Below, one piece after another: positions 1 to 39,257 of a stretch of DNA of 64,000 nucleotides. Position numbers and translations under genes: made by a program. Every line of letters starts with the position of its first letter. Positions within the stretch are counted from its first letter, which is position 1. The notes beneath the pieces are model-generated. The model was not told where the DNA came from, ran no database searches, and was given only the letters and a program-made list of their open reading frames with translations. Location: positions 8,184,001 to 8,248,000 of the forward strand of contig NC_134028.1 of assembly GCF_964204645.1 (NCBI RefSeq). The letters run 5' to 3'. Source of the DNA: Tubulanus polymorphus (taxonomy: Eukaryota > Animalia > Nemertea).

Positions 1-85
1 TTCTTAGGTTATGAAAGGGTTACGGGGCTATTGAGAGATTGGATGAAAATGAATGCCTTAGATTTTGTATTTGATCGTTTTTCAG

Positions 86-3000
86 AATCTTCTCGTCGAT
101 ACTTGTGCAGACGTTAGAACTGTCGCTGTATATGGAGTTTGTAAGGTCTGTTGCGTATATTGGGAACTGGTTCCCGCTGAGATAGTCAAACAATATCTGA
201 CCAGTCTTACGCAACATTTAGTTTATGACGGAACCAGCGCGGATGTCCGAGTAGCCGTATTCCGGGTAAGTCATAATTCGAAAGTCCGACGGACATTAAA
301 AAAAGAAGAGACTAATCCATGGTGGCATAATTGATCGTTTTGTTATAGGGTTTTACTCATTTGTTGGACAATTACCTTAGTCATCCGGTGTTGAAGCAGT
401 TGTTGCCGCGCTTGCAGGATTTCATTCACGACCCTTCGGAGAAAGTTCGCATTGCGGTCGTCGAAATGTTGCTGAAAATTCATCCGATTCGAGGAATAAA
501 GGTATCGTATTCATTTGGATAAAGTTATAGAAGATTCTAGATTGATTCAAAATAATAGATTAATAATAATGACATAAAATTGTAATTAAATGTCTTCTTT
601 TAAAACCAGTTTTTACAAAATTTGATGAGAGTACTTTGAAGCTATGTTGATGGCTGTATAATAATATGTAGTTAGTGTTTTAATGTCAAATCTAACTGAA
701 AGTTCAATGAAAATACCTTTCTTTACAGTGTTAAATTGGTAATAACGCTCTACATTTTTTTCTAGTCCAAATTGTGGCATTTAATCTTTTGAAAATAAAA
801 ATAAATTTAATATTTTTGACATATTTCTAAAATTTGATTTGATATTTAGTGCACACTGATAATTTCATGCGCTGTCTGTGAGCTCAAAGGACTAAATAAT
901 TCACGATAGTGTATCCCTGGTTAAATCTAATTGTAGGTTTGGTCGGTCGTACCGATGACTCATCTGCTCACGCGTTTAGAGCTCGATTCCGCGGCTGTGA
1001 TTCGTCGAATCGTGCGTCTGATCTTCCCGAGTTTTGTCCCCATCGACAAGTCGAACGACACTTTGCTCAAACGTTGTTTAGCGTTGCTGCAAACGAATCC
1101 GCGCGCCGCTCGAGTCTTCTTTCAGTACTCGCTGAAACATATGTCCGTGAAAAGTGTCGGTACGTAAGTCATGCCAGGATGATTTATTACGTATATGCGT
1201 GAAACCTTGATTTTTTAACCCCCTTGTATGCAAGCATTTTAAAGTTTGTTGCGTACATGCTGTCTGCATACTGAGGCTTTTTTAATCCTCAAGAGCATAG
1301 ATTTTTAAAGAAAAAATGGAAATGCAAAGGGAGAACAAAGAAAAATGAAAGTAAAAATTCATTACAGACGATATGAAATGATAGGGAACAGGAAGTGAAA
1401 TAAAAACGTGAATATTTTCGAGTATTTTCCACATAAAATCTAGATAAAATAAAAAAGGAGTGAAAATTGTGAATTCTGATGATGGGAGAAATGAAGAAAA
1501 ATAACTCTTTGCAAATCATGTGATTGAAATTTAAAACAGACGTCGTGATGAAATCGTGATGAAAACACTGCAGAGAGCTAGGAAAATTCTAATTGATGTT
1601 TTTTGTTTAATTCTCACAAGGCGAATCTTATACTCCCAGTATTAAAGGCTTTCAATTACGAAAACATGTTGCGTGAAATATTCTTTTCTCTCGTTTTTTA
1701 GAAAAATATCTACTGGTGCTCACCTCGTGTGTAATGTCCTGCGTCAAGAAAGAGCTCGCCAAAGAAAATCCAGATCTAAGTCAAGATCTAAATGATCAGG
1801 TTTGAATTTTTTCATCCATTTCCATAAAGCATAATAATAATGATTCATTTTTCATTTAACTACATTAGAAAGTAGGGTTATTTTCACAATTTGGAATAAC
1901 GAGGTGTTAGTGATAAAGTGATTACATGATTGATCCAAATATAGGACTAGTTGATTCGTTACATTTAGAAATGGTGCGACTAGTTCGAAACTGTTACATT
2001 TGTTTGTCTTCAAGAACTAATCATTCACTTTCCATTCACTATAATTCAGCCGGAAGATGACGATAATGATTTATCGGTCGATGATGCGGATATTTTATGC
2101 GGTTTGGTTGAATCTATGACGATCCTTTACGCTGGGATTGTTCCAGAACTCGGTAAACCGATCAACGCGTCCTCTAAGACGCTCCTCGAGGATAAATTTG
2201 CCCAGGCTCTGCCAGAATTCTTCCGTGTTTTTAAGGTGAGCTAAGCTAAAGAAAACTGGTACCTTGTTTCTCCTTTATGCATAGCTTAAAAGTTGACCCG
2301 GCTGGCTGCTTATCTACCCTGTACATAACATTTAAAAAAATCATGATCAATTTTACCGTAACACCCGGCAGCTATAGAAATGAACTGATTACAAATTTCA
2401 TTGCTGTTTACAAAATGACCCGACCGATTAGGAGAACCAAGATATCATTTTTGTTTAGCCTTAGTTTCCTAAGTTGCACGATTCTGACCTAAGAACTAGT
2501 AAACGTTAAGACAAATAGGACTTTGAAGGTTAACTTGATTTAATTTAAAGTGCGGCTCCTCCACAAACCTAAGAACTATATTCTATTCAAGCTTAGATGA
2601 TGGACACCTTTTTAACATTACTTTTAAGGATGCGAAGATATTATCTCCACTCTGTCTGCTGGCTGGTTTTATGCCACCAAACGCTGTTCCTTTGTACAGG
2701 TATGTATATGTTGCTTATAGGTGGTACATGTTTATTCAATTTTTCCTATATTAAGGACAGGCGAACCTTGACCAAATTTGCAATTAATGATATATTCATT
2801 AATTGTTCGCAGCAACTTGGCCAATACTAAGGTTCATAGCAGTCCTTAAAAGTAATGAAATTAGAATGGGTCAATTCAAGGCCTTGAGTATCATGGATCG
2901 GGCTCTAAAATGCTTAAAACATTATGGTCCTTGAATGGCCTCAGTCATTAGTTATCATCTGCAAATCCAAGATACAAGTCACTTTTACAGCTCTTGAAAT

Positions 3001-6000
3001 CTACTGATTTTGACAATATAAGGTTCAATGAGTAGGGGTTATAAAGATAGACAGCTTATATTGACCGATTATCCCAATTATTCTCATATTGGCTGACTTA
3101 TGGATTCAATTGTCTTTTTTTCAAGTTATGCCGATGCAGTTGATAATTGTCAAGAATGTGTATATCTTTCTAGTCGAAGTTGTTTAGCGAAACTGCGTAA
3201 CTTCGATCAAAGCGCCACCCCGACGGAATACGGCCCCCTACTGGAAGCGATGTGTAATTGGGGCAAGGCAGGAGATGTCATAGAGTTATTCACGGATTGG
3301 TTAAAGCTTACGTTTACACCCGTTCAGAAGGTTGATATGATTTTGAATTCTAAATTCTGTACGCTTGTCAAATGATACAGTAGACTCAGAGTACATGTAG
3401 ATTTGTAGATTTAGAGTACATGTAGTACGATTTTAAACATTTTAAGCCCACTTGGGACTTAAGAACATGCGGGTTATTCTTTGGGACACTTTCAACCGGC
3501 CATCACCTTAGTGGCGAGCTTAGTTTACTGTAAATAAAATTCATGTATATTTCCTATAGGTTTCTAAGAAGGCGAAAAAGAAAGGAGTTTCATTCAGTAA
3601 AGAAGCGATGGTTGCGAAACCGGTTTTAGGATTGAACTTACTCGGATACTTGCTGAGTCAGTTGTTGTGTCAACAGAGGATTTTAGAAGGAAATGGCGAT
3701 GAAATGAATGCGTTGAAAAACGTTCTCAAAGACACGATGGTGAGAATGCCAAAAATGTTCCATTCACTGACTTGAATTTTTCTTGAACTACCACCGTGGA
3801 AGATACAGTTGAACTTTGTTATGTCCTAAGGAATAACGATTCATTGGATACTGGGGTCAGTTGCTCATAAGTTGGCTAAAGATAACCGGCGAACAAATAC
3901 CATACGAACTTTCAATTGTCACCATGTCAATGATCCACTGGTTAATAATCAACTTCTAACCAACTTCGGAGCAACTGGCCCCTGAATTTTTACCCAAAAA
4001 ACTTAGACCATTGCCGACTGTTGATCCATCGCATCAGTAGTTTCAGATTCATACTGAATATATAATAGTTTCAGATTCATACTAATAACTAGCTGATAAT
4101 CATTGAATGACCAGACATGGCCAAACTTCAGGCAGGACTGTACCTGCTGTATGAAAGTCTCAAAAGTACCTACTGGATATAATGAACTAATTTTCTCATC
4201 CCTTTAAACAAAATGCTACTGTTAGTACTGGATAAAATGAAACTTCAAGTTGTATAATGAACAAATTCTCATTCCCCTGGGGTAAATTCAAGGCTTTTCT
4301 GTCATTCCATACTACTATGGTAGATATAGAATAACTAGACTTTTGCTCCACTTACACTTTGTTGGTATATATGGCATAATCTGATAGGCCTATGAATCAA
4401 TACCATATTGAATGAGTTTCATGTACGTCATGTATATAGTTTTAACATGTTTTTTAGGTTCACATCGAGCAATACATCACAAAACCAACTGATGATAAAA
4501 ATTCACTAATTACACCCGAGTTTCTGCAACAAGCTTTCGATCTCTACTGCAAAATGATCGTTCTCATGCACCAACAGGTTCGCTATAGTTTATAAGCTTT
4601 GAATTGTGGGTATGTTTTAGTTAACTTTATGATAAACTAAATTTGTTTTGTTTTTCAACAGAAGGAAGGAGAACTTAACAACTACGTCATTGAGTCCTTC
4701 GAATATATTTTGACGTGGGTTGATCGAGAATTGTTGCCGACACTCGAACGCGAGAAACAGTCAACTCAGCGCAAACGAAAACGAACTTCAAATGCAGCCG
4801 CTAGTCACGAAGCTGAAGTGAACAAACTGTCCAAAAATATCATAAAGGTTTGTTCACACGGCATTATACAGTCCTTCAGTCCTTACGAAGAAGGTTCTTC
4901 TTAAACTTTAGCCAGTTGTTGTGGCTTAGATTTAAGATCAGCGTAAAAAAATCTTAGTTTCATCTACTTACGACCGGTCTAAAGATTTAGGAGCACTTTT
5001 TGACTTTTCAGTCATGACAAGTGGCTGATCGAACATGATTGTAATTGATGATGAACTGAATTGTGGAGCATTTAAATTTTCAGCGGAAAATATGATAAAA
5101 ACCCACTATGTACAGATTTCAAAGTTCTAAAACCAAGGAAAGTTGATGGTGGCAGAAAATCGAATCATGGGTGTTGACTGTAGATATTTCATCTTACAGG
5201 TGCTGTTAGATATTTGCAATGATTTGTTGCTGGTAGGCTTGGGTACATCAGACTTCACCATTCTTCTCTCTGACGTGATAGTTAAAATCGCACAGACAGG
5301 TACGAACAGCTTGACTGAAAAATGTCTTTCATCTTTTCAAAACCTTTTAGATTTATGAATACGGATGATTGAAATATCCATACAAACTCTCATGCTTAAG
5401 AAGTCTCAAAGTATCTCCGATCAGATAAATTTGGCTCGAAAATCTTTTGTTTGTATTACTGAAACCCAATTAATCAAATGATTTGTTTCTGATAGATGTA
5501 GTGGCTGAATTTATTGCTGTTCTGGTAAGGACCTTATATCAAATCACAGAAGCGAATATCAACCACGACTGGAATCTCGCTACGACAATCCTGCCGAATC
5601 TTTTTACCGAGGTTACAACTGCAATCCTAAATGTAACAATTTCTAATCCGGATACTTCGCTTGAGGTAGGAATGACTTCTGGCATAATTTCTATTTTTGA
5701 GTGAAATATCCGAATCCATCTGTCGGCTAACACGGGCGACACGTTGGACACACGGGACTAGTTAAGCAGGACATCTAACATTTGTGCTATTTCCAGATAA
5801 ATCTGGGGGACTGGGTTTACGGGAATTTTGAAAAAAAAATTTCGAGATTTATTTGGAAATGAGCCTTCGAATCAAATTACATGCCCGTTCAATTTCTATT
5901 CAGGTGGTCGCGTCTGTAAGGCCAGCTTTTACCGAAGCCATGAACGCCTACTTCGTCCATCATCGCTCCGTGAAATCGACGAATAACGATGTCATGGCGA

Positions 6001-7176
6001 CTATTATGATTACGACGATGAACGAGTCGACTTATCGAGTCAAGTCTGAGAACGAGGTCATCGTCGATTCGTTACCACCGGTAACGGCGATGTTGGTGAA
6101 CGTCGTCAAGCAGAACGCGTACATGTTAGGATTGTATTTGGAAGAGATTTACAGCTACGCGCGTTCAGAGGCCTTGGAAGGATTGAAATCTTTGGCTAGT
6201 TTAGTGCAGATTTTACAGGCTGTACAGAAAAGTAAGGCCTGAAGTGCTTAACACTATTTTTGTCTGTGGCACAAAAAAATTGATAACCTCGCTAAAATGC
6301 TTGAACCTCTCCCAATAGTTGTGAATTATGAAAAGTTTACTAAATATGAAAAAGCTTGATAAGTTAAATGCATTAAGTTCACTTGTCTGTGACGGCCACT
6401 ATTCATCATTTGAATTTTACTACAGTAAACTCAACCATATCTGATAGCATCATAAGGGCCAGTCGCTTAAAAGTTGTTCAGAGTTAACCAGTGGATAGTT
6501 GACGTAGTGACAATTAAATGTTCATTGTTACTTCGTTATGCGTCCGTCTGTAACCTTTAACCAACTTCTGAGCAACTGGCCACTGACTGTTTATATTTCC
6601 GAGAGTTAACAAGTTGAAAATCAAGTAAATTTAAGATACAGTAGACTCCGATTGGATCCGATCAACTCGGATTTTCGATGAAATATCTTTGGGACACTAG
6701 CAGTATTTATTCAATACATAACATCCGTCTCACTCAAGTCAGACACACTTATACAGTCGGAAAACGTCTGAATTGAGTGGAGTCTAACAATCTATTGTCT
6801 TAAATGCTTAAACTTTTTCAAGATCGGTAACTGGTAACTTTTAAATTGTTCGTTTAACTCATTACAATCGATTAAGGAAACGTATTTTTATTTTAGGTAA
6901 AGCGAATGCGTCAGGATTGAAGGATTGTTTCAGTGCTGTACAGATTCGGCTTGATAAAATTGAACAACCAAAAGCCGAAGATGCCGTAACAATGTAAGAT
7001 TATGTGATTTCTCTACAAATGAAGACAGCTATGCAAGATTTGAAAAATATTTCGAAGTTCATTCGAATATTTTCTTTTATGGTTTGAAGTAATTTCTTCT
7101 GTTTTTCAGGGAGATGTACGCAGTGACGAAGTCAATGTTGAAACAATGTTGCGGCGTTGTTGGTATGGTAAACTAA
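86..7176 (+). CDS. NCAPG2: Condensin-2 complex subunit G2, 3' part (5' exons lie before the window)
   Basis: GT-AG exons read in frame: 86-265, 349-501, 937-1159, 1702-1799, 2050-2235, 2629-2699, 3174-3330, 3560-3739, 4458-4577, 4662-4847, 5200-5299, 5495-5666, 5905-6232, 6897-6993, 7110-7176 (TAA). Peptide SADVRVAVFR-GFTHLLDNYLSHPVLKQLLPRLQDFIHDPSEKVRIAVVEMLLKI...HLLTRLELDS...NPRAARVFFQY matches the CAP-G2 HEAT region as I recall it from vertebrates. AATAAA at ~7285. Confidence 0.9.
2242..2463. mobile_element. MITE family A (TIR ~TAAGGCTA-A(n)-TGATACCTTGTTTCTCC), PIF/Harbinger-like; further copies at 9395-9698, 11974-12190, 15727-15935 and remnants at ~24948-25110 (repeated in each array unit)
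   Basis: Imperfect ~30-bp terminal inverted repeats, TAA/TTA-like flanks, shared interior (agcttaaaagttgacc...atagaaatgaac...aaatttcattgc) in several introns in both orientations. Confidence 0.75.
3852..3985. mobile_element. Short palindromic MITE family B (GGGGCCAGTTGCTC...GAGCAACTGGCCCC); related copies ~6457-6582 and ~18472-18588
   Basis: Terminal inverted repeats and homologous interiors (aaagttgg...ccactggtta) at three intronic sites. Confidence 0.65.
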
Positions 7177-7730: not shown

Positions 7731-9555
7731 ATGATGAAGATTTTGATTATTTTTGCCGTACTGACGGCGTCCGGTAGGTGTATTGTTTTTCATAAGTCGT
7801 CAGTTTTTTTCGTCATGATTATTGATTTGTTCGACAACAAAACTAAAACTAAAAGGAAATTTTATTTCGGCTTTGCCTTTTGTTCTATTACGCAAAAAGT
7901 TTGTGTCTTTGTGCTGTTGTTGAGAAAACTGACATTTTTCGTAACTCTATGGTCCTCGCCTGGTCTAACTGCAGTTTAGGTCACCTTTCCACTGTGTCTG
8001 AGTGTGGCGTTAGTGTTATTACTATTAGGCCTAAGGACCCTTGGAATACTGAATAGCATTTGGTAAGGTAACCATTAGGAACACTTTAAGTGCAGTCACT
8101 CCACCATCATCAGCATTGCCCTGGTGGCTGAATTATAGGCCTAATGGTTACTGACCAGGTTTTGGGATTCACATATTTAAACTGTGTTCTTCATTAACAA
8201 TCTATTTCCAGCCAGTGCATCACCATTACTGGGTACCGATCGATGTACGTGGGGACCGTCGTACTGGTGCAGTCACATCAGCCATGCTTCTGAATGTCGC
8301 GCCGTAAATCACTGTATCGACACTGTTTGGAGTAAGCAACAACTGCCCACTGAACAGGTATGGTCTATCTATTTGAAAAATAGGCCTATTTTGGCCAAAT
8401 TCAATATTCGCAATGTTTCATTTCGTTAAATACCTATGCAACCTTTTCGAATGGTGTAAAAGTTCCTTCATGCGGATAATCTAAACCCGATGAAGTATCA
8501 TACCTTCTTCCATACATTTGGATACCTTACAAATGTTATCGGATATCCATCAGCCTTGATTAGATGTCAAAAATCAATGTTCCAATAATGGTAGATTGGG
8601 TAGGACTAATCGAGATCAATAAAATTCTGGATTAGGCCCATAAACTGGTATCCGCAATAAGTAGGTTTTGCGTAAGTTCATTTCTTATTTGTAAATATTT
8701 TTTCTACATGCAATTTCTAGAATAATGGTGAAATTTGCACGTTATGCGAAGGCGTCATTGCGCAAGTCAAACAAATGCTGCTTGATCCAAATGCTGATGT
8801 AAGTAATGTAATTAAGGATAGGTAGCTCATACCGCCTACACACTTGTTCTTCTTTAAAAAAAGAAATCGTTCATGGTTATAACTCCCTTGCTCATGCTTC
8901 AATTTGTTGGGAATTAAGACAAATGAGATACATCTATTTTGATTCACAGTTGAATTAGCCAAGACTACATAAGGCCCCAGTTAGATATAGGCCTAGGACA
9001 GCAGGGGCCTTATGATTTTACCGAAAATCCATAAAGTTTGAATATCGATGATAAATAATTTTGTTTTTATTCAGGCTCAAGTCAAATCATTCCTGGATAA
9101 AAGCTGTACTCTTTTGCCCGCTGTTCAGTCGCAAAGACAGGTTCGTGTTGAGCTAGATATTTTCTAAAAACGCAGATCGTGTGTGTGAAATAAAGTGATT
9201 GCTAAAGAAATTGAGTGCAATTACTTCAAATTAATTGGTAATTAAAAGTAAATTATAATGTAAGAAGTTTGTTTGAGGAAAATTTCATTGAATATTTGAA
9301 TAAGAATTTTAGGAAGGTTGTTATGCTGTATTGAAAACAAGAACAGCATTTATATAATTTTATAATATTATTTCCAGTGTCAAAAATATACTGATTAGGT
9401 TAGAATAAAATGATATTTTGTTTCTCCATATCGGCTGGGTTATTTCGTAAACTGCAATGAAATTTGTAACCAGTTCATTTCTATAACATCCGGGTCTGTA
9501 ATGGCTACTAGCTTGATCATGATTTTGAAAAAAAGGAATGTGCATGGTTGATAGG

Positions 9556-9637
<82 letters not shown>

Positions 9638-12600
9638 TCTGGGTCAACTTTTAAGCTCAGCAGAAATGGGAAACAATGTATAAATTTTTTTTGCCGTATG
9701 CGTTTGGCCTCACTGATGGATTATTTATTTGATTGATTGCACTGAGACAGTTAACGATACAATTGTTAGAAATAAGAATCCTTGAAAAATATGAAATTGC
9801 AAATGTTTTAGTAGTTTCAGGACGGTTGAAACATTAAGATTAGAGTTGATTTCAATGTTTCGTCGAATGAATACTTTCAGTGTAAACAAATAGTCGATAC
9901 ATATTACAACGAAGTGATTCAGATGATCAAGAGTAAATTGTTACCGCATCAAATCTGCGCCGCCCTGAAATTGTGCCCGGCAGTAGCTGCGGGTAAGACG
10001 ACACCGAAACGCGAGAGCAGTCTGAAGTTCACATCTCTGAAAGCGCCCACTGCAAAGGTATGTCGTGTATATCGTGTGAAATAGCGTGAAAAATCCTTCT
10101 TAGTTCTTGGTAAAATAGTACTCGGAAACTCTCGGTTATCCTAGAAAATTCTTCGAAAACAGGCGAGAATTATCTGATTACGAAAAGATATTTCTTTGGA
10201 AATTATTTTGTTCATACGTTATTAGATAGATTTTATTTCGATGAGATTTTGTGTTCGAGCTAGGGTACAATAGCTCTAAGATCTAGGATCTAAGATAGCT
10301 CTAAGATCTAGATCTATATCGCGACTAACGGCTTATTTGATTTGGTAAACAAAATTGAGCATTAGCATTGTATAAAGTATAAAATTGAGCATTAGCATTG
10401 TATAAAGGCTCATTATTTTTCGTGCTATGTACTTGCTACTGATTCATCGGAGAACTTCTGTGTCAAGTTGTGAAGCTACTACTATTGAGGGGTACACGCT
10501 GGTTTAACCACAATCAGCTGATAAACCGCATGTCGGCTGACTGTCATTAAGCAATCATTAACATGGCTAAAATGTAAATAGACTCATAACCATTGTGATT
10601 CATGTAGGCCCCAGCTGGCATTGCTATAAATTTGAGAAAATCATTCTTTCGCCTCAAATTAGTCCATTCTAATTTCTTTCTCGGCAAAAGCATAGGCCTA
10701 CGCCTACCAATGTTTTTGTTATTTGGTGGTACCTCACAGACCACGCTAATCTGTAAAGAATAATATAAAAGTAAATTCGAACGGTTTATCTTGATTCCAC
10801 TATCGTCATGACTAAATTCACAATCTTTCTAAGTACCGGTTTACGAAAACGTGAACAAATGCAAAATCATGACTACCTGATTTTATGAACGCGACGCACT
10901 GATAAAGTTCAGAATGATCTTGATTCCACTAGTCGACCTTTAACATTGATTAAGTGAACATAAGTGAACGACACAAGTGGACAACACAAATAGATAATAT
11001 TGATAATTATCGTGTGAATGTCATATGATGAGCTCGAGATAAGCTTTATTGAATTTCGGGGAAGATTTTCTTCTCGCCGGCTCGAAAAATAGTTAGCGTT
11101 ATTAAAATCGGCGCATAAAGATGTCTCTAAAGCCTTAGGCAGGTTTCGATTGATCTCTACTGATTCAGAGAGTTACTAATCCAGACCTGAACATTCAATC
11201 GAAACCTGACTCAGTCGTATTATTTTGAATATATTTGTTTTCTAATATGATGACTTTCGTCTCTTATTCTGGCCTTGTCCACTCATCCGACCTCGTCCAA
11301 TTTTCTACCACTCTGATTTTTATCTTTCGCACATCAATCCACTTGTCCAACGTCAATTCTTTTTTCCACTAATTATAATACCTCGTCCAACTCTACTCTC
11401 ACTCACCACTCAACCTTTCGTCTCTCCTTGTCCACTTATCTTGCAACCTCATCTAATTACCTACCCATATCCTTTCGTTCTTGCCCTTTCACTCTTTTAC
11501 CGTTTTCTTCACGCCTCTCTCGTGCTCCCTGCCCCTTGTTTAGGTCAACGTACCGTTACAGTGTACCATCTGCAAAGCCATTCTGACCGTCGCCAAAGAT
11601 TTCGTTAGCAATAATGCAACCGAGGTAAATAATTCAAAAACTCTTCCATTACGTTGTACATATGAAACGTTTACTATATTTTCAGTGCGAAATGTGCAAA
11701 ATTGCAATTCAAAAGGCTAAAGCTATGTTTGATACTAAGAAGTCTCAGGTAGACCCGATATCTATGTGCTAGGCATGACTTGTTTAAAAATGGGCTTGAA
11801 TAATTATCATCTTTCGCATTTCTACTGTGTTTTTAACGTTTGGCTTTGTGTCTTTATTTTTTACTCACTCTCTTGATAATGCACAATCATCGGTTGAGCG
11901 GTTAGCGGAGACACATGCAAAATATCATCTAAATGATACCTGTGACTTGTCGTTTTGATGTGCCTCCGGAGACTTAGGCTAGAATAAAATGATACCTTGT
12001 TTCTCCTAATTGGCCGGGTCATTTTGTAAACTGCAATAAAATATGTTCATTTCTATAACTGCCGGGTTTGTTATGGTTGACTTGATCGTGATTTAAAAAA
12101 TAATGTACAGTGTAGATAGGCGGCCGGCCGGCCGGATCAACTTTTAAGCTTGGCAGAAATGAGAAACAATGTATCAATTTTTTAGCCTTTCATTATCTTC
12201 ATTATCATTAGATTAATATTAGATTGACTTACTTAGTTCTTTTAATGTGTTTTCATTTTTCAAATTTGATTTATTTGGTGGTGTTGGTTGAATTTTGATC
12301 GAATTTATGAGGAACTAACATATACAAGAATGACAAATCTATAAGTGGCATTAAAAAAGCATTGAAGTATAGTAGCTTTCCCTAGAATGAGGACCCGGCG
12401 CTGTAGACTATCCCACAAGATGGCTGTGACAGTGAGGTTCATTTTGAATGAACTTCTAATTAAAATTTCAGCTTCTGCAAACAAATCTTGCACCTAGATA
12501 AATCATCTTCTTGGATATTGGTTGTTTGTTTATTCATCATTCATTTAATTTCAATAGAATTATGGATGGATTTTATTTTATTAATCCTCGCTTGCCATTA

Positions 12601-15600
12601 GTGGAATCCTCAACTGCCGAATTGCAGAGGCCTCCGCTCATTGCGAGTTTTGGTTTCCTATGTCAATTTCATATTCTGATCAAAGTTCAACTGACTGAAA
12701 AAAGATTCTAATACAGCTGGAAAAACTCATTTGCAACATATCTAATACTGTGTTTGTTTATTTGAAATTAGGCGGAAATCACTGCTTTCATCAAAAATGA
12801 ATTGTGCACAAGACTGGGACCTGAGCAACAAGCTGTAAGTTAACTGTAGAAATCTGATGATGTTTTTATACCCAAAAATTTATTACTACAAGGACTCATT
12901 TCAGTAGTTCATATGTTCATGATGAATATTCAGAAGAAAGCATTTTGTTCAAATGAGGCCAGTACTTATCAATATGTGTACATAAGTCTGCATAGAACTG
13001 GTCACAGATCTGCAATTTATAGAATAGGTTGAAATCAATAATAACTACGTGCTGGAATTTAGTTAGTACCGATATAATCAATTTATTTTCATATTTTTCA
13101 GTGCGATTCATTAGTTGATCAGTATGGCAATCTGATATTCCAACTTCTCGCCAATGAAATAGTGAGTATTTCATAATGACTTTAATTCTTCCATTACCAA
13201 CTGTAAAGGGGGCGATAATGGCCGCCTCGTTACCAACATCTGGTGCACATTCTTCACATATTTCAAACTTAAATATTGGCTTTACCGTAAGAAGATACAC
13301 TGATATGGCCTTAGAACTGTTTTCTAAGTTTCTATTGATACCAATATTTGTATTGTATCGCTACTTACTGATATTTATCCACAAATGATTCCACGAGTGT
13401 TCTGTTCAATGTCTGAGCTAGTGTTGGACTGCAAAGTAAAAAATAATGCCGAAAATGGCAAGTTTCCGAATTTGATCGGCGTGTATACATTTGAGCGGTT
13501 CCGCATGATGTTTCGGAACGTCAATTCAACCAATATGAGTCAATTAAATCAAGAACATCGACTATTGATAATGTTTGGTTGAGAAAAAATGTGAGAAGAG
13601 CTTTGCAATAACGTCCACTCATCTTACGATCTTGTAAGATAAAGTTGATGAGAAGTCCAATCCTCAATGAGTGATGGCCCTATTGCGACTATACTTGTAT
13701 TGGCAACTGAAAAATAATGGCCTGAAATTTTCTTTTGTATTCATTTTAGAAACAGATTTCAACTCAGGATCCACTTCCACAGTTGTGAGTTAAGATTTGA
13801 CTCGGAGTTTGCTCACTGAAAACCTCAATGATGTAATCGTAAACTCAGAGTTAACTCTAACTCGCCACTGTGGAGCCAGGTTTTATAGTTCAGGAATTTA
13901 CGCGTGTAATCTCATGGTTTTGCTAATTCGACGTTTATTTCAGGACCCGGAACAGATTTGCCACGCGATCGGTTTGTGCACCACCGCGACGAAATCGTCA
14001 TCGAACACGGTCATGGCGCAACTGCCTCCGAAAACGCCGGCTCAATCGCCGAAAAAACCGAAAGCGGTGAAAACTTCAGCCGAATGCGTCATGTGCGAAT
14101 TCATGGTCGGAGAACTCGAAAAATTGCTCGGCGACAAACGCAGCGAAGCGGCGATCGCCGAGGCTTTGGACAAAGTGTGCGGTCTTTTACCGGCCACGGT
14201 GACCGACGAGTGTAAACAGTTGGTACAGATCTACACGCCGATGATTATACAGTATTTACTGAAAGGCATGACCCCCGATCAGTTGTGCGTCGAGATGCGC
14301 CTGTGCACGGCGGCGGCGTCGCTGCTGAAGGTCAACGTCCAGCGGATACCGGGCGTTAAACAAACGGCTCAGTGCGTCGCCTGCGAATTCGTGATCAAAA
14401 CCCTCGACGGCATGTTGACTAAAAATGCGACTGAGGTAATGATAATTATGTATATATATTTTACTGATTCTTTGTTTCAGTCGATTAATTATGTTGAGTA
14501 TATAAGTTTATATATTCTGCTGATTCTTCGTCGTTTGAATGTTGAATATTATATTTGATTTCATAGTTTGAAATTTTATGTGTATAGTACGGATGATAGC
14601 ACGGAAACACCATCTTTAAATCGCCTTCAGTATCGGGCATAACTCAAATGGGCTTGCGAAGTGCCGAAACATCTGTGAACGCAACTCGCTCTGTTAAGCG
14701 CAGTATTCTGACAAATTTGGCACCGCACAAGTACGGTACTTCGTAACCCAGAATCCTGAGTGAACGTGGCTAATATGCTTGTCAAAGAGGTATCTCTTAT
14801 ATTCTGATTAGAAGGAGTCCGGCCGTAATATACATATAGTAAATTGCGTTTTGCTACCCAAGTCATTTGAAACTTGTTAGCCCTGAGAAAAACATGGTAT
14901 TTTGCGAGAGCGCTAATATTGTTGTTGAGTTCAAGTAAGATTTGTTATGGTAGAACAGAGTCTCTAGAAAGGTGCTTACAAAACGAGCTTATGATATGAA
15001 AGTGATGCAGACGCTTCCCAGAAATTTGAAATTTTCTCCTTTTAAACTCCTTGAAAACTCTTTATATCCAGGAATGACTGATTTTTAGGGACCCCGCATA
15101 TGAACATGCTAACCAATCACAATTAAGTTAAGATTTGATGTTTGTTATTTCAGCAACAAATTGTACGTGCTTTAGATAGAGTGTGTACGTTAATGCCGAA
15201 GACAGTGAGAGCTGAGTGTCAATCGTACGTCAACGCGTACGCCCCGGCTCTGATTCAGCTGCTCGCATCAGACATCGACCCGCAACAGATTTGCACGTTC
15301 CTCGGAGTTTGCAGCCCGGCGGTGAAAAAACATCAACCGACTAGGCAACAAACACCTGTGAAGGCTGGGCCGACGTGCGTCCTCTGCGAATTCGTCATGA
15401 AAGAACTCGATGGACTTCTTTTGAAAAATGCGACCGAGGTAAGATGAAATACGTTTCGGTTTTGGCAATAAACCTTCAGTTCTGATTATATATTTGATTG
15501 TTTATCTGATTATATATTCATTTTCAGCAAGATATCATTGCAGCTTTAGACAAAGTTTGCAGTCTGCTACCGTCTACTATTAGTGGTCAATGTGAAAGTT

Positions 15601-18600
15601 TTGTAAATCAGTACGCACCATTAATTATCAAACTGTTGATTAATGATTTTGCTCCGGGAGTCATTTGCAAACAACTAGGCCTCTGCACTGCTGTTCGTAA
15701 GTATTCTATAGAAATCTCATGCTCAATGAGGCTAGAAAAAATTGATACGTTGTTTCACCTTTCTGCTGAGCTTAAAAAAGCTGTCCCAAGCAGCCACCTA
15801 TCTCTACCTTCCTTGTACATTACTTTTTTGCTAAATCATTATCAAGCTAATCATGAATTGATTGAAATTTATTGTGGTTTCCAAAAGTGCCCTGGCTGAT
15901 TAGGAGAAACAAGGTATCGTTTTTCTTTAGCCTTATTATTGTGTGTGTACAGTGTTGGTGAATTCGTAAACCCCAGGACCTGGTTCCACAGTTGTGAGTT
16001 TTAAGATTTGACTCTTGAAAATCCCCGCCGCCCCCCTCCCCCCCGCTTGCACACGGATTAGTCCAAAAATGGTCTCAAATTTAAGGTTATAGACTAAGAC
16101 TGGCTATAGAACTAAGTTCGTCTTAAGCCGGGCATAGGTCATCCTTGTGACAGCTTGCGACCGCCAGCGACAATCGCGTCGCAACAATTCACCGACCTAC
16201 GCTACCTTGCGACGGGTTGCGACTGGCAGCGATGCCAGTCGCAATGAGTCGCACATGTTCTACTTTCTGCAACGCGACGCGACCGTCGCAACTGACCAAC
16301 GCGCTCTTGCGACTGGGAGCATCTAGACGCAGACAGTCGCTGGAAATCACATCGCAACCGACTTACGCCCCCACTTGTGACGCAACGTGACGATTGCGTC
16401 GCGAGGTCGACCTACACCCGGCTTTAGACTGGTCTTTTCTTGAATCCATCTAAGCTATCACTGTGAAACCAGCTATCACTAGATATATGGTCCTCGCTTG
16501 AAACTTGGCACTATCCCTCACAAAATGCTTATCGTCGTTGGCTCTGTAGCAAACGCAGATGTTACTTCCCTGGTCAAACCAAGTTTGATACTTGTGCTTA
16601 TGATCGGAAGTGTCACTGGTCACATTCATCGTCGATTGGCACTTAAAGTAATTGTTATTACTGTGTCCATTCAATGCTGTTGCTTTGATATGAAGTTATA
16701 ATGACTGGCAAAATTTCAATACTTCAAGCGATAGATATTTATTGATGTTTTTATACTGTCTACATGTACCGGAAATTGTTTCGTTACAGAGACCCAAGTC
16801 CGAGCGAGTGGTGAGGTTTGTCAGTTGTGCAAAACGGTTATGTCGTATTTGGCTATGCTCTTGAAGGAACAGTCGACCGTACAAACGATCGACCACGCAG
16901 TCGAACGAGTTTGCAACTTCTTACCAGCTGCGATGAAAAAACCGGTACGTACTGAACTCTATTGGTGGGATCCAACATCGATCACTGGAAATATTTTGTC
17001 AGCCATTCCTAATTTTATACAGACACAGACCAGACCATTATCGTCAGTTTTACTTCATCAAAGTTAGTTTTTTTTCGATCATCTATAAACTGGATTTTTT
17101 TCTTGAATCCATATGTTATCAAAAGAGTGCCGGTAATTAGGTACATAATTACAAGAGTAACTTTTCAACTCAGTGTTTGGTATAGTTTTCACTGGTAATT
17201 GACGAGAAAAATGCCACAAATTCCTTCTATTTTGAGAAAGAGGAAATTAGAAATTTTTGAAGTCATACAGTAAATAGACTACGCCTAAATTTGTACAGTT
17301 AGTACCAGAATTTGTTACCCAATTAGGCCAAATTAGTAAGGGTAGGAATTTGCTTACAAAACCACCGGACTGACAATTTTTGCGAGATAAACAGTACAAA
17401 TTTAGAGGGTGCCTACTATAGCAGGGATATGAAAGTGATGCAGACGCCTTAAAATTCCTTCTATCCCGGAATGGCTGATTTGTAGGGACCCTGTAGTCGC
17501 CTTGCTTATCCCAAGGTGATCAAAGCTATTGACCATCACCTCTGATATTAATAGGGAAGGGTCACTGACAGTGCAGTAAATTTTCAATCAATAACTGTCT
17601 CTGAATTCTTCACTGCACTTGTTGAGAAGAAAACCTTCGGAATTGTTTATTTCATGTACGTTATATTTTTCAGTGTGACGATATGATAGAACAATACGGA
17701 CCGTTTATCATTCAAAAATTGGACCAGCAGCTCATAAACCCTGCCGATGTTTGTGCCGTAAGTGTTCGACTGCAACTATTATATTCTTCAATACAACAGT
17801 ACGAATGGCACTGATTTATTCTAATAATTTTAGAAAACAGGGAAAAAACAGAGAACTAATTTCTCTAAGGGAAAACACATGGAATTCGATATACCATTAA
17901 CCCTTTCAGTGCGGTGTAAGAATCAGTGATGGATTTTGCTAGTACACCGCATTGTGGTGTATTGATTTAATTAGTAATTACTAATTATCTCTCTTGAAAG
18001 ATGGCAGCACCTGTCAAACATAGTGAAATATTATAACTAACGATATACCGCGCCAGGGTGTAGACGCACTATAGTGCTATTCCCGTTATTCAACACACTA
18101 GGGTGGAATTTTTCAGAATTTTCAAATTATCTTCAGCACTATAGGATATTAACTAGCCAGCACTGAAAGGGTTAACTTTGAAAAACAGAGAAAATGCAAC
18201 TGAATTGTTCCTAATTTTATTTTCATGATCTGTTGTAGGAGATTCGTCTGTGCACGGCGGCTAAAAAACCGACTATCGGCCTCGTTCATTTGCTCGGCGG
18301 TGAGAAATGTACGTACGGCCCGGCGTACTGGTGCGCAAGTGTTCAGAATGCTAAAAGATGTCAGGTGAATATGGTTCCAATGAGCTTTACTGGTTCTGAC
18401 GAATTTGAACTACAGTGCAATAGAATTAACTTAGTTAAGGCTAGAAAAATATGCAATGGTTTTGTGGCATCTGGGGCTCAAAAGTTGGTCATAGTTGACT
18501 GGTGAACAAATACATAGACTTGTCGCTCAATTGTCACTATGGCATTTGTCCACTGGTTAGCTCTAACCTAGTTTAGAGCACAGGCCCCTATATGTGAAAT

Positions 18601-19206
18601 TATATCGGAAATATGGATCAGATATATCCATTCATTATAACCAATAGGCTGACGAAACTAACAAATCGAACTTTCTCATTTCGGTCGAAATGTATGATTT
18701 CTTACAGCCAATGAATTGTCTATTGAAAATAGTCCACGGGAACATTTTGAAATTTGTCAGTTATAACCATGGTTTCTCATTGTTACTATTTTTGGTGGTT
18801 GTTACCCCGATTTAGGAGTTGCCCCTAGGGATAACTTCGATACCAGTCTATAAATCCGGCACCTGGTGTTTTGTGGGGTTTTACTGTATAAGTGATTAAA
18901 GGATGGTGGATACATCATACATATTTTACCAGTTAACGTAACACCAAAGTTCACGTGAATTTAAAACCCACTATATACAGAATTTGAGAGATTATAAACG
19001 AATCTGACACCTGATGATGATCTCTAGTGAAAGTTCGAAATGTTGTGTATTTTGATCTTTTAAATTCAGTATATAGTGAGTTTTAAACTTATTATCTTTT
19101 CTCCGAGTGTTGCTATTCTACTGAAGTACAGGTTATTCGAATGTTTCTTTTCGTATATTTTCAGGCTATGGAACATTGTCAGACTCACGTTTGGACTCGA
19201 GATTAA
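7731..19206 (+). CDS. PSAP: Prosaposin (signal peptide, SapA, six SapB domains, SapA); ~688 aa with exon 6a or ~682 aa with exon 6b
   Basis: Exons 7731-7773, 8212-8357, 8721-8798, 9075-9140, 9881-10057, [6a 11544-11624 | 6b 11686-11748], 12772-12834, 13102-13161, 13944-14435, 15154-15438, 15528-15696, 16790-16944, 17674-17757, 18239-18364, 19165-19206; phases compatible. SapA motifs CTWGPSYWC and CTYGPAYWC; six CxxC...C...C...Y...PxxxCxxxxxC domains. Confidence 0.93.
9557..9636. repeat. (GGCT)20 microsatellite inside a MITE-A copy
   Basis: Directly visible; other MITE-A copies carry only a short ggct/ggcc run at this position. Confidence 0.95.
11215..11541 (+). promoter_or_regulatory. 327-nt AG-exclusion zone / extended polypyrimidine tract upstream of alternative exon 6a
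   Basis: No AG dinucleotide between 11214 and the acceptor at 11542-11543; C/T-rich, many YCAY and TCTT/TCTCT motifs. Confidence 0.7.
11544..11624 (+). CDS. PSAP: PSAP alternative exon 6a (VNVPLQCTICKAILTVAKDFVSNNATE)
   Basis: tttag acceptor, second in-frame acceptor ttacag giving a 63-nt exon from 11562, GAG/gtaaat donor; CxxC helix 1 with N-A-T sequon. Confidence 0.8.
11686..11748 (+). CDS. PSAP: PSAP alternative exon 6b (CEMCKIAIQKAKAMFDTKKSQ)
   Basis: ttttcag acceptor, CAG/gtagac donor, 63 nt, phase 0-0, CxxC helix 1 without sequon; intact in all units of the paralogue. Confidence 0.85.
13766..13880. mobile_element. Short MITE family C (GGxCCxGTTCCACAGTTGTGAGTT...AACTCACAACTGTG); related at ~15974, ~28343-28460 (each array unit), ~40745-40857
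   Basis: Recurrent cagttgtgagttaagatttgact and its inverse aactcagagttaactctaactc in several introns. Confidence 0.55.
16126..16423. mobile_element. Harbinger-type MITE (AGCCGGG...CCCGGCT) with TTA TSD, GTCGC/GCGAC-rich interior
   Basis: TTA at 16123-16125 and 16424-16426; homologous site in the paralogue (~40940-40955) is empty. Confidence 0.8.
17901..18171. mobile_element. piggyBac-type MITE
   Basis: TTAA|CCCTTTCAGTGC ... GCACTGAAAGGG|TTAA; absent from the paralogous intron. Confidence 0.85.
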
Positions 19207-24200: not shown

Positions 24201-27200
24201 TATTCATAAATATTTTTTTCTACACGCAATTTCTAGAAAAATGGGGAAATTTGTACATTATGCGAAGGCGTCATTGCGCAAGTCAAACAAATGTTGCTTG
24301 ATCCAAATGCTAATGTAAGTAATGTAATTAGGTATATGTAGCTCATACCGCCTACAGATTTATTCTTTCTTTTGAAAAAAACTTCTGGGGTATTGTTTGT
24401 ATTTGTTGGGAATAAAGAACCCTGGGGATGTAATTGTGCAGAAAAATGATACACGTATATTTCAATTTCCGGAAAAATAAGCCAAGACTGAATAAGGCCC
24501 CAGTTAGATATAGCCTGCCTGGGATGGCAGTGGCCTAAGGATTTTACCAAAAATCCATACAGTTTGAATATTGATGAATTCGTAATTATGTTTTTATTCA
24601 GGCTCAAGTGAAATCCTTCCTGGATAAAAGCTGTACTCTTTTGCCTGAAGTTGAGTCGCAAAGACAGGTTTGTATTAGGCTGAGTTTTACTGGACACGCA
24701 GATACGACCCATGATCGTAAAACTATCTGCTCTGTGGCCTGGATCGTGTGAAATGAAATGATTGCTAAAGAAATTTAGTGAAATTGCTTCAAATGAATAG
24801 GGAGTTAAAAGTAAATTTCAACGTAAGAAGCTTGTTTAGGAAAATGTCAATACGAGTTTTGGGAAGGTTGAAATGCTGTATTGAAAATAAAAACAGGATT
24901 CACATAATGTTCAAATAATTCTTTCCAGGGTTGAAAAATAAACTGAATAGGCTAGAATAAAATGATATCTTGTTTCTCCGAATCGACCGGGTTATTTTGT
25001 AAACTGCAATGAAATTTTTAACCAGTTCGTTTCTAAAACATCCGGGTCTGTTATGATTAGCTTGATCATGATTTTGAAAAAAGTAATGCACAGGGCCGGG
25101 TAGATAGGTGTTCTACTATTATTAGATATTAGAGGGAAGTTTCCAGTTATCAGGCGCCATTTTGAGGCGGACCCACAGATCCCGCATTGTTGGACAGATT
25201 TTAACATTTTTAAACTATAGCACCTTTAGCGCGATTCAATGTAGTCCATCCCACTTTTGCCTCAAAAATCAAAGTCATGCATCGTTAGAAAGGTGACAAT
25301 TTCTATTTTCTGATGTCAATGTAGAATTTTGACAGAAAATCGACAGTCGACCACTCGCGCGCGCTTTGCGCTTAACTTAACAGGTGACCACGCGCGTTTC
25401 TATGAAGATATTTTTACGTATATTTTTAAACTGTAATGGTATCCGATTGTTGCAGCCGATAAAAATGAAATAAACACCATCAGAAAATAGAGATTGTCAC
25501 CTTTCTAACAATGCATGACTTTAATTTTTTTGCCAAGAGGGGTATAGACTACAATTAATCGCGCTTAAGGTTTTAATGTAAAAAATGTTAAAATCTGTCC
25601 AACAATACGGGACCTGTGGGACCGCCTCAAAATGGCGCCTGGTAAGTGAAAACTTCCCTATCCTGGTAAAGAAATTTAGCTAAGTTATAGTAGTTTGGGG
25701 ATGGTTGAGATGTTAAGATTAAGATTGATTTGACTGTTTTGTCGATTGAATATTTTCAGTGTACGCAAATAGTGAACACGTACAACAATGAAGTGATTCA
25801 GATGATCAAAAGTAAATTGTTACCGTGTCAAATCTGCGCCGCCCTGAAATTGTGCCCGGTAGCAGCTGCTGATGGAAAAACGACACCGAACCGTGAGAGC
25901 AGTCTGAAGTTCACACCTCTGAAAGCGCCCAGTGCTCGGGTATGTCAATTATGAGAAATAGTGTTACTAAGGTTTCATTTATAAGAATTAGCAATCTTTG
26001 CGGACAAGGTTTCCCAGTAAGTCATTGATCCTTGGTAAAATAGTACTCGGGAAATCTCGGTTTTCGAAAACAGGTATGATGGGTTTCTAATGGCACCAAG
26101 AATTATTGATTACAAAAAAATATTTGTTTGAAAATTTTTTTGTTCATACTTTATTAAATAGATTTTATTTCGATGTAATTTTGTTTTCGAGCTAGGGTAC
26201 GATAGCTCTGAGATCTAGGATCTAAGATAGCTCTAAGATCTAGATCGAACCTAGGACTAACCACTTAAATTTAATAAACAGGTGCATTAGCATCATTGTA
26301 TAAAAAGGCTCATTCCCTCGTACTACGTACTTGCTGTTGATTCACGCGAGAAATTCTGAGAGTTTCAAATACAGAATTCGTAGAATATGTAGAATTATAG
26401 AGAGTACGGTATGTAATACGTTCAATCGAAACCTGCCTCAGTCGTATTATTTCGAATATATTTGTTTTCTAATGTGATGACTTTCATCTCTTATTCTGAC
26501 CACTCTTGTCGACCTAGTCATATTTTCTACCACTCTGATTTTTATCTTTCGCACATCAATCCACTCTCCAATGTCAATTTTTTTTTTCCAATAATTATTA
26601 TACCTCATCCAACTCTTCTCTCACTCACTTGACCAGCACTCAACCTCTCGTCTCTCCTTGTCCACTTATTTTGCAACCTCATATAATTACCTACCTTTAT
26701 CCTTTCATTCTCACCCTCTACATTTTCTACCGTTTTCCTCAATACCCCTTGTTTAGGTCAGCCGTCTGTAAAGCCATTCTGAACGTGGCTATAGATTTCG
26801 TCAGCGACAATGCGACCAAGGTAAACAATTCAAAAACTTCCTTCATGTTGTAAATATTAAATGTTTATTATATTTTCAGTGCGACCTGTGCAAAGTTGCA
26901 TTTCAAGTGGCTAAAGTTATGTTCGATGATAAGAAGTCTCAGGTAGACCCGATATCTATGTGCTTGGCATGACTTGTTTCAAAATCGGCTTAAATATTTA
27001 TCTTCTATCGCATTTCTATCGTCTTTTTAACATTTGGCTTTGTGTTTATTTTTAACTAACTTTACTGAACTTCTAATTTGAATTCCTGCATATATCAATA
27101 AATCTTGCACGTAAATCATCTTCTAGGATATTGGTTGTTTGTTTGTTTGTTTGTTTATTCATCATTCATTTAATTTGAAAACTCATTTATGGATTTTATT

Positions 27201-28686
27201 TTTCTTCACTTGCCACTGGTGGAATCCTCAATTGCTGCATTGCCACGTCTTCATTGCGAGATATGTTTTCTATGTCAATTACATATTTCAACAAAATTTA
27301 ACTGACTTTGAAAAAAGATTCTAATACAGCTTGAAAAACTTATTTGCTATATATCTAATACTGTGTTCATTTATTTGAAATAAGGCGGAAATCACTGCTT
27401 TCCTCAAAAAGGAATTGTGCGCAAAACTGGGACCTGAGCAACAAGCGGTAAGTTAAGTGTAGGAATATGATGATGTTTTGTACCCTAAAATTGTTTACGA
27501 TGAGGACTCTTCAGAAGAAAGCATTTTTGCCATTTTCAAACAAAGCCAGTACTTACCAATGCGTGTACATACATCTGCATAGGTCAAAGATCTGCAACTT
27601 ATAAAATAGATTGAAATCGATAACAACTATGGGCTGGAATTTACTCAGTACCGGCATAATCAATTTATTTTCATATTTTTCAGTGCAATTCATTGGTTGA
27701 TAAGAACGGCAATCTGATAATGCAACTTCTCGCCAACAATGTGGTGAGTATTTCGTAATGACTTTAATTCTTTCAGCATCAACTCTTATGGGCGACAATG
27801 GCCGCAGCGTTACCAATATCGGGGTGCACATTTTTCACATATTTCAAACTTAAATATTGGCTTTACCGTAAGGAGATATACTGATATGGCCTGGAATTGG
27901 TTAAGAACTCTTTTCTAAGTTTGATACCAATATTTGTATTGCATTGCTAACGTATGTTTATCCACAAATGATTCCACGAGTGTTTTGTTCAATCACCGAG
28001 CTAGTTTTGGACCGCAAAGTAGAAAATAATGCCATGAAAAATGGCAAGTTTCCAAATTCGATCGGCGTGTTTACGTTTGAGCGGTTCCGCATGATGTTTC
28101 GGAACGTCAATTCAACCAATATGAGTCAATTAAATCAAGAACATATACGATAATGTTTGGTTTTGAAAAAAATGCGAGAATGGCTTGGTAACAACAGATC
28201 ACTCATCTTATGATCATGCAAGATAGACATCGATAGAGTTGATGAAGACCGATCCTCAACGACTGATGGCCATATTGCAAAATACTTTTCTATCTATTTC
28301 AGCATCAGTTTTCAGCACTTTTCAGATAAACCTTTTAATGCATAGGATCCAGTTTCGCAGTTCCGAGTTAAGATTCGAATCAGGAGTTAACTCATCGATA
28401 ATGAACTTATTCTAACTCAGAGTTATAACTCTAACTCACAGCTGCTATGGACTTGGATCCAGGTTCAGGAATTTAAACTCGTAATATGATCTCATGGTTT
28501 TGCTAATTTGACAATTCGACGTTTATTTCAGGATCCGGAACAGATTTGCAAAGCGATCGGTTTTTGCCCCTTCGCGTCGCAGACGGTCATGTCGCAACGA
28601 TCTGCTCAGTGCGTCACCTGCGAATTCGTGACCAAAACCCTCATCGGCATGTTGACGAAAAATGCGTCTGAGGTAATGATAATTAT

Positions 28687-28731
<45 letters not shown>

Positions 28732-33950: not shown

Positions 33951-33983
<33 letters not shown>

Positions 33984-39200: not shown

Positions 39201-39257
<57 letters not shown>

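What the first reader, a model, noticed from the sequence alone, without database searches (positions are those of the whole stretch)
11544..11748. Duplicated, probably mutually exclusive exons swap helix 1 of a saposin domain (glycosylated vs cationic version)
Seen: two adjacent phase 0-0 exons each encode a 21-aa CxxC first helix for the same SapB domain 2 (6a CTICKAILTVAKDFVSNNATE; 6b CEMCKIAIQKAKAMFDTKKSQ), but only one set of downstream exons follows. The intron between them is 61 nt (59 in the paralogue), whereas every other intron I mapped is >=81 nt. 6a carries an N-A-T sequon at the usual saposin glycosylation position; 6b lacks it and has 5 Lys. Known: a SapB fold has exactly six Cys, too-short introns enforce mutual exclusion sterically, and cationic SAPLIPs (NK-lysin, granulysin, amoebapore) permeabilise membranes. 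Inference: a splice switch converts one saposin between a glycosylated lysosomal activator and a cationic form. The prosaposin splice variant I know is the vertebrate 9-nt exon, not a helix swap.
Basis: partly seen in the sequence, partly recalled or inferred. Interest (0 to 1): 0.88.

Follow-up and report, generated by a model that had tools for sequence, protein, structure and literature searches.

The report
Ribbon-worm prosaposin swaps a saposin helix
A ribbon-worm gene for a lysosomal lipid-handling protein splices in one of two alternative short exons, so that one domain is made either with or without its sugar-attachment site; a distantly related ribbon worm's annotated proteins show the same choice, which likely tunes which lipids the domain handles rather than turning it into a membrane-killing peptide.

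Summary
Confirmed, with corrections. The window holds Tubulanus polymorphus prosaposin. Spliced contigs join exon 5-6a-7 and 5-6b-7; no 6a-6b, skip-both or short-acceptor joint was listed (one sample; 1 and 6 joints hidden). Exon 6a is used as 81 nt/27 aa, not 21 aa. RefSeq already holds both isoforms. Lineus longissimus isoforms show the same sequon/no-sequon helix-1 swap in this domain, and a second one in domain 1. The 'cationic' reading is weak: the whole 6b domain stays acidic (net -3), and both Lineus forms are -5. Exclusion likely rests on the 61-nt spacer, since both-in would be in frame; 6a also has a 327-nt AG-free pyrimidine tract. The paralogue's 6a is broken. Annelid and mollusc prosaposins mostly carry a sequon-bearing and a sequon-less B-type domain in tandem; nemerteans have one and likely make both kinds by splicing.

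The parts
7731..19206 (+). Prosaposin gene 1 (signal peptide, SapA, six saposin B-type domains, SapA); 15 coding exons per isoform
   Evidence: Exon map of RefSeq proteins P0001/P0002; Pfam SapA x2, SapB_1 x6, SapB_2 x6; in-script joins give exactly P0002 (6a) and P0001 (6b)
9881..10057 (+). Exon 5, common upstream exon; donor at 10057
   Evidence: Joints to both 11544 and 11686
11215..11543 (+). 327-nt AG-free, 74% pyrimidine tract before the 6a acceptor; candidate distant branch points at its 5' end (A11209, A11245), inferred
   Evidence: Longest AG-free stretch in the window on either strand (next 178 on +, 181 on -); the other 14 acceptors of the gene have 19-59 nt; about 80% identical in the paralogue
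11544..11624 (+). Exon 6a, 81 nt, 27 aa: linker plus helix 1 of domain 2 with the N-A-T sequon
   Evidence: Joints 10057>11544 and 11624>12772 in X5 and X6; RefSeq X1 XP_074648493.1
11625..11685 (+). 61-nt spacer intron, GT...AG with no inner AG; not seen spliced out
   Evidence: no 11624>11686 joint among those listed
11686..11748 (+). Exon 6b, 63 nt, 21 aa: alternative helix 1 without sequon, 5 Lys
   Evidence: Joints 10057>11686 and 11748>12772 in X6; RefSeq X2 XP_074648494.1
12772..12834 (+). Exon 7, common downstream exon (helix 2 of domain 2)
   Evidence: Joined from both 6a and 6b
13102..13161 (+). Exon 8 (helix 3 of domain 2)
   Evidence: Joints 12834>13102 and 13161>13944
26757..26820 (+). 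Broken 6a of the paralogue, unit 1 (17-nt deletion, first Cys lost, 64 nt, out of frame); same at 32021-32084 and 37272-37335
26880..26942 (+). Intact 6b of the paralogue, unit 1 (also 32144-32206, 37395-37457); the only form in RefSeq P0003 and in paralogue-type contigs
   Evidence: X6 contig of depth about 10.6 joins exon 5 to 6b and 6b to exon 7 (tables 5 and 5c)

Best explanation
Exons 6a and 6b are a pair of homologous, mutually exclusive exons that give the single B-type saposin domain of nemertean prosaposin either a helix 1 with an N-glycan sequon or one without it, which likely yields two saposins of different lipid-handling behaviour from one gene. Shown: either exon alone is spliced between exons 5 and 7, each gives a six-Cys domain, and Lineus isoforms carry the same choice. 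Inferred: double inclusion is blocked because any branch point in the 61-nt spacer lies under about 50 nt from the 6a donor, while the choice is set at the 6a acceptor through a distant branch point and a long pyrimidine tract. Inferred: the pair arose by tandem exon duplication before Palaeonemertea and the Lineus lineage split; 6b resembles the unglycosylated second B-type domain of annelids and molluscs, and 6a supplies a glycosylated B-type saposin in a lineage that lacks the first, mostly glycosylated, B-type domain. Predicted: after cleavage in the lysosome the two forms differ in glycan, protease resistance and the hydrophobic face of helix 1 (positions 3, 7, 10), and so in lipid extraction or preference.
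For: Four either-or joints, none for both or neither among those listed; the X6 6a contig (139 nt) runs unbroken from exon 5 through 6a into exon 7. RefSeq X1/X2 differ only here. Both-in (709 aa) and neither (661 aa) stay in frame, so decay of frameshifted RNA cannot enforce the choice. AG-free tract 327 nt against 19-59 nt at 14 other acceptors; such tracts mark distant branch points and go with mutually exclusive exons (PMC2991248, passages); steric limit about 50 nt in vertebrates (PMC7969005, passages). Lineus: 1 of 7 isoforms has the sequon helix in domain 2, 6 of 7 the other; 2 of 7 swap a sequon helix into domain 1. Like pairs with like across species: BLOSUM 52 (6a-6a) and 47 (6b-6b) against 28 and 38 within species and 30 and 40 crossed; shared columns I7/N18/T20/E21 in 6a and M3/A7/Q21 in 6b. 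In 10 of 10 named annelid/mollusc proteins examined, a first B-type domain (sequon in 8 of 10) is followed by a second (sequon in 0 of 10); none of 7 nemertean proteins checked has the first type. [quoted passage not shown] Both isoform models give a helix over the exon.
Against: RNA evidence is assembled contigs from one sample of one study; contigs drop rare forms, and 1 and 6 joints were not displayed. No tissue or stage data. The minimum intron length of this genome was not measured, so 61 nt may be spliceable. Lineus rests on automated protein models; exon order and spacer were not seen. The quartet test prefers the ancestral-pair tree (bp-RELL 0.75) but rejects neither alternative (p-AU 0.14, 0.33); without Cys and positions 18-21 the within-Lineus score (20) equals the 6a-6a score (19). 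Lacking a sequon is common: 46% of 1824 fetched domains, and domains 1, 3 and 6 of this protein. Unglycosylated human saposin B still loads lipids onto CD1d, and glycosylation did not matter for saposin-hydrolase binding (PMC6807164, passages). The paralogue lost 6a and is still transcribed. The domain tree has 53 columns and weak support. No biochemical test.
Confidence: 0.62

Rival explanations
1. One reading: the splice converts a glycosylated lysosomal activator into a cationic, membrane-permeabilising (antimicrobial) saposin-like protein.
For: Helix 6b is +3, in the top 2.5% of 1681 helix-1 sequences. At pH 4.4 the 6b domain is +2.5 and the 6a domain -0.5; Dictyostelium prosaposin-like domains of pI about 5 with +2.2 to +3.5 at pH 4.4 form pores in acid, and the one at -1.4 is the least active (PMC11542183, passages). 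The paralogue keeps only 6b and its domain is +3.8 at pH 4.4.
Against: Whole domain is -3 at neutral pH. Both Lineus forms have the same charge, -5.3 at pH 7 and +1.1 at pH 4.4. Constitutive domain 1 is more basic than the 6b domain. Human saposins C and D rank far above NK-lysin and granulysin in the whole-protein search of solved structures (E 8e-16 against 1e-4 and 1e-3), though those best stretches lie in other domains.
Confidence: 0.17
2. The switch acts on the uncut precursor: one more or one fewer N-glycan (3 against 2 sequons) changes sorting between lysosome and secretion, as proposed for the vertebrate 9-nt exon 8.
For: X1 has sequons at 194, 399, 494; X2 only the last two. In mammals a splice choice in prosaposin is linked to secretion (PMC3828254, passages).
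Against: Two sequons remain in either form. The conserved changes at helix positions 3, 7 and 21 are not explained by sorting. No localisation data.
Confidence: 0.12
3. A near-neutral leftover: an old exon duplicate kept mutually exclusive by geometry, the two helices being interchangeable.
For: The paralogue lost 6a; 6a and 6b share only 5 of 21 residues, and each only 8 of 21 with its Lineus match; no helix-1 swap outside the two nemerteans among 2227 domains of 302 proteins.
Against: Both exons are open and used in two distant nemerteans with the same sequon polarity, and Lineus repeats the sequon/no-sequon choice in domain 1; the long AG-free tract implies upkeep.
Confidence: 0.07
4. Origin rival: 6a is the stranded helix-1 exon of the lost first B-type domain (collapse of a tandem domain pair) rather than a duplicate of 6b.
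For: Order sequon-then-none matches the order of the two B-type domains in annelids and molluscs.
Against: 6a lacks the CxDCxxF motif; over positions 1-17 both 6a sequences score higher against the second-domain profile than the first (-5.3 against -8.5; -10.8 against -24.1), all scores being negative.
Confidence: 0.15

Closest known systems
RefSeq automated models: T. polymorphus prosaposin-like X1/X2 (XP_074648493.1, XP_074648494.1) and L. longissimus X1-X7
   Same: The very isoforms are already in the database.
   Different: They carry only isoform numbers; no paper on them was found.
Vertebrate prosaposin 9-bp exon 8 splicing (PMC3828254, passages)
   Same: Alternative splicing of prosaposin; that it lies in saposin B is recalled, not from a call.
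   Different: A three-residue cassette, not an exchange of a whole homologous helix with two of the six cysteines and the sequon.
Homologous mutually exclusive exons with steric exclusion: C. elegans let-2 9/10, bet-2 3a/3b, gly-5, gly-6 (PMC4165533, passages); vertebrate OGDH 4a/4b (PMC7969005, passages)
   Same: Tandem homologous exons, lengths of 3n in the C. elegans short-spacer cases, spacer too tight for joint splicing, long AG-free pyrimidine tract in OGDH.
   Different: Here the long tract precedes the upstream exon, not the downstream one; 61 nt exceeds the 14-37 nt of the worm cases, so steric exclusion is inferred, not shown.
Human saposin B and its unglycosylated patient variant (PMC4393008, PMC6807164, passages; Remmel et al. 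2007 seen as a reference title only)
   Same: One N-glycan site right after helix 1 (Asn21); its loss impairs some functions.
   Different: In humans the loss is a disease mutation; here it is a programmed isoform with a rebuilt helix. Strict orthology of this domain to vertebrate saposin B is not resolved.
Membrane-permeabilising SAPLIPs: NK-lysin, granulysin, amoebapore, Dictyostelium Apls (PMC11542183, PMC5890168, passages)
   Same: Same fold; acidic Apls can form pores at low pH, a range the Tubulanus 6b domain falls in by calculated charge.
   Different: The 6b domain is net acidic at neutral pH, sits in a canonical prosaposin polyprotein, and its charge gain is not shared by Lineus.

Membership tests
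Homologous mutually exclusive exon pair | Two adjacent exons homologous to each other, same phase | tested here: met
   Both phase 0-0, both score as saposin helix 1 (32.3 and 22.4 bits; best non-saposin hit 5.1); 28/63 nt, 5/21 aa identical
Homologous mutually exclusive exon pair | Each exon is spliced alone between the common flanks | tested here: met
   Four joints in X6, two in X5
Homologous mutually exclusive exon pair | Both-in and neither forms are absent or rare | tested here: inconclusive
   Not among listed joints, but contigs drop rare forms and 1 and 6 joints were hidden
Homologous mutually exclusive exon pair | Conserved in relatives | tested here: met
   Lineus isoforms swap the same segment; protein level only
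Steric exclusion by a tight 5' splice site to branch point distance | Branch point under about 50 nt from the upstream donor | tested here: inconclusive
   Motif candidates at 5 and 49 nt from the donor in gene 1, 34 and 41 nt in the paralogue; branch point not mapped
Steric exclusion by a tight 5' splice site to branch point distance | Spacer shorter than the organism's minimal intron | not testable with these tools
   No genome held; shortest other intron in this gene is 89 nt
Exclusion by frameshift and RNA decay | Both-in or neither shifts the frame | tested here: not met
   709 and 661 aa open frames
Exclusion by docking-site/selector RNA pairing | Conserved complementary elements near each exon | tested here: inconclusive
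   No inverted repeat shared by gene and paralogue among 15 and 9 pairs; no orthologous DNA at hand
Prosaposin | Signal peptide, terminal SapA motifs, tandem six-Cys SapB domains | tested here: met
   Pfam; six Cys in both forms of domain 2; signal peptide read by eye
Cationic lytic SAPLIP (NK-lysin/granulysin type) | Net positive domain at neutral pH (recalled as the defining trait) | tested here: not met
   -3.2 at pH 7, pI 4.9
Cationic lytic SAPLIP (NK-lysin/granulysin type) | Membrane permeabilisation | not testable with these tools
   Needs a bench assay

The most novel reading that the evidence does not exclude
Invertebrate prosaposins are splice-built lipid tool kits: because saposin helices sit on separate phase-0 exons, nemerteans (helix 1 of domains 1 and 2, helices 2-4 of domain 3) and, separately, Ciona (helices 2-3 of several domains) assemble many saposins from one gene, and the sequon-less helix turns a lysosomal lipid extractor into an acid-activated membrane-permeabilising protein used in defence or digestion.
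Probability: 0.2. Interest if true: 0.78.

Novelty: new variant of a known kind. Interest (0 to 1): 0.53.

Why it matters
Prosaposin diversifies by adding whole domains, and the only splice variant found in the papers searched is a 9-base cassette. Here a natural, conserved swap of one helix on an otherwise identical saposin body gives a ready-made pair for asking what helix 1 and its glycan do for lipid extraction, lipid choice and membrane damage, a question raised by the human disease variant of saposin B that lacks the glycan. It also suggests that a splice choice can stand in for a lost tandem domain. The splicing type itself is ordinary and both isoforms are already in RefSeq, which caps the score.

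Tried and rejected
No own genome is held, so no genome-wide intron lengths. No listed holder run is on record as RNA; X5 and X6 are read as RNA because their contigs skip GT..AG introns, X2 and X4 as DNA because theirs run through introns. X7 laid one 40-nt repeat piece at 80% likeness and says nothing. Short 6a acceptor at 11562: open frame (682 aa) but no joint listed. A second helix-1 exon for domain 1 in Tubulanus, as in Lineus: none found in gene 1 or the paralogue. Tandem helix-1 pieces inside single protein models: 3 pattern hits among 208 proteins, none a helix-1 duplicate on reading. Isoform sets without a helix swap: Saccostrea (2), Branchiostoma floridae (2), B. lanceolatum (2); Mytilus edulis (4), M. 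trossulus (2), M. californianus (2), Macrostomum (3); Ptychodera and Halichondria differ by a whole-domain skip; absence from automated models is weak evidence. Docking/selector pairing: nothing shared. Collapse-of-tandem-domain origin: not supported by profiles. Structure models used alignments of different depth (22, 34), so their confidence values cannot be compared; the fold search of the whole model returned human saposins D and C on top with no E under 0.001 and cannot be assigned to domain 2. Literature: searches (15 listed; 14; 2; 0; 0; 0) gave no title or abstract start on an exon swap in a saposin domain; I saw listings only for these, and most subscription papers are outside the library. 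No supplements were read. Scan memory: nothing by sequence or place.

Full report
What the locus is. Exon 9 (13944-14435) matches one protein at 100%: Tubulanus polymorphus prosaposin-like isoform X2, a palaeonemertean ribbon worm. Its cluster has two members, X1 (688 aa) and X2 (682 aa). They map to 15 coding exons each between 7731 and 19206 and differ only in exon 6. The protein has two SapA motifs and six saposin B-type domains. A paralogue follows at 21209-43122 (P0003).

Observation. 6a = 11544-11624, spacer = 61 nt, 6b = 11686-11748, all phase 0. Both score clearly as saposin helix 1, and only domain 2 of gene 1 has two such exons. A DNA-type contig confirms 11530-11754 letter for letter. 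Spliced contigs of one sample show exon 5-6a-7 (X5 14.8, X6 44.6) and 5-6b-7 (X6 24.7); the flanking constant pieces in X6 have depths 59.8 to 78, which the sum 69.3 fits, although contig depth is a poor measure. No joint for both, neither or the short acceptor at 11562 is listed; 15 of 16 and 15 of 21 joints were displayed. So 6a is 27 aa in the transcript, not 21.

How exclusion probably works. Both-in and neither are in frame, so RNA decay cannot be the guard. The spacer has no inner AG and is the shortest intron-like interval of the gene (others 89-1486 nt); a branch point at the usual distance from its end would be under about 50 nt from the 6a donor, the steric limit proposed for vertebrates (PMC7969005, passages), and C. 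elegans enforces five in-frame clusters this way with spacers under 40 nt (PMC4165533, passages). The limit for ribbon worms is unknown, so this is inference. Such zones mark distant branch points and regulated exons (PMC2991248, passages). I infer that the choice is made at the 6a acceptor. No conserved pairing elements were found.

Conservation. Seven RefSeq isoforms of Lineus longissimus prosaposin differ in the same place: X6 has a sequon-bearing helix 1 in domain 2, the other six a sequon-less one beginning CEMCK like 6b. Lineus also swaps helix 1 of domain 1 (sequon in X4 and X7) and helices 2-4 of domain 3 (X2, X7). Like pairs with like across the species (BLOSUM 52 and 47 against 28-40); the quartet likelihood agrees but rejects nothing. 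That the two lineages split in the early Palaeozoic is recalled, not from a call. Among 2227 domains of 302 fetched proteins, same-body/different-helix-1 pairs occur only in these two species; Ciona models swap helices 2-3 of several domains, and some Ciona models hold both versions, so those need checking. The paralogue has lost 6a in all three repeat units and its contigs use 6b.

What differs between the forms. Conserved across both species: N18, T20, E21 and I7 in 6a; M3, A7 and Q21 in 6b; position 10 is apolar in 6a and charged in 6b. Not conserved: charge. The domain is -6 with 6a and -3 with 6b in Tubulanus, -5 and -5 in Lineus. At pH 4.4 the Tubulanus values are -0.5 and +2.5, which overlaps the range of acid-activated pore-forming Dictyostelium domains (PMC11542183, passages), so membrane activity of 6b stays possible. 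Both full-length models place a helix on the exon. In humans, saposin B has one glycan at Asn21 (PMC6807164) that is essential for some functions (PMC4393008), though not for all.

Evolutionary context. The body of nemertean domain 2 groups, weakly, with invertebrate B-type domains. In 10 of 10 named annelid and mollusc proteins examined there are two in tandem: the first with a sequon in 8, the second in none and ending in Gln21 in 9, like 6b; none of the 7 nemertean proteins checked has the first type. I infer that 6b is the old helix and 6a restores a glycosylated B-type saposin by splicing. That 6a is the physical remnant of the lost domain is not supported.

Verdict. A real, conserved, mutually exclusive helix swap that toggles the glycan site and the helix face of a saposin. 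The splice type is well known and the isoforms are in RefSeq; six literature searches (listings only) found no description in a saposin domain. The cationic-lytic reading is a minority rival. New variant of a known kind; interest 0.53.

Noticed in passing
window 24540-40340: The prosaposin paralogue holds three head-to-tail copies of a 5.26-kb unit at 99% identity (seven exons each), giving a 1088-aa model; real expansion or assembly artefact is open. The paralogue is transcribed (X6, depth about 10.6) and lacks domain 3.
   Followed up: partly
window 29310-29935 and 34562-35187: The repeat junction joins helix 1 of one domain (with sequon) to helices 2-4 of domain 1, making a chimeric glycosylatable domain: the same helix-1 exon boundary used as a shuffling point.
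   Followed up: partly
window 11134-11214: A 20-nt inverted repeat (90% complementary, 41-nt loop) ends at the start of the AG-free tract and covers the branch-point candidate A11209; that A is C in the paralogue, where 6a is dead. It may be a dispersed repeat, since an X6 contig matches it with unrelated flanks.
   Followed up: no
P0037-P0042, P0006 (Lineus longissimus): Three separate in-domain swaps in one prosaposin (domain 1 helix 1, domain 2 helix 1, domain 3 helices 2-4), up to eight combinations.
   Followed up: partly
P0014, P0024, P0054-P0067 (Ciona intestinalis LOC100176110): Alternative homologous segments for helix 3 or helices 2-3 in at least four saposin domains of the automated models.
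   Followed up: partly
window 21867-23707: Cluster of direct and inverted repeats of about 145 nt in intron 1 of the paralogue.
   Followed up: no
window 62-6242 (+), 45355-46479 (-), 50743-51795 (+), 54388-62994 (-): Neighbouring genes read by eye, 47 translations, labels recalled and not tested: a condensin II G2-like subunit, a one-exon peptide-receptor-like GPCR, an Sp-family zinc-finger gene, and two tandem SLC22-like transporters.
   Followed up: no
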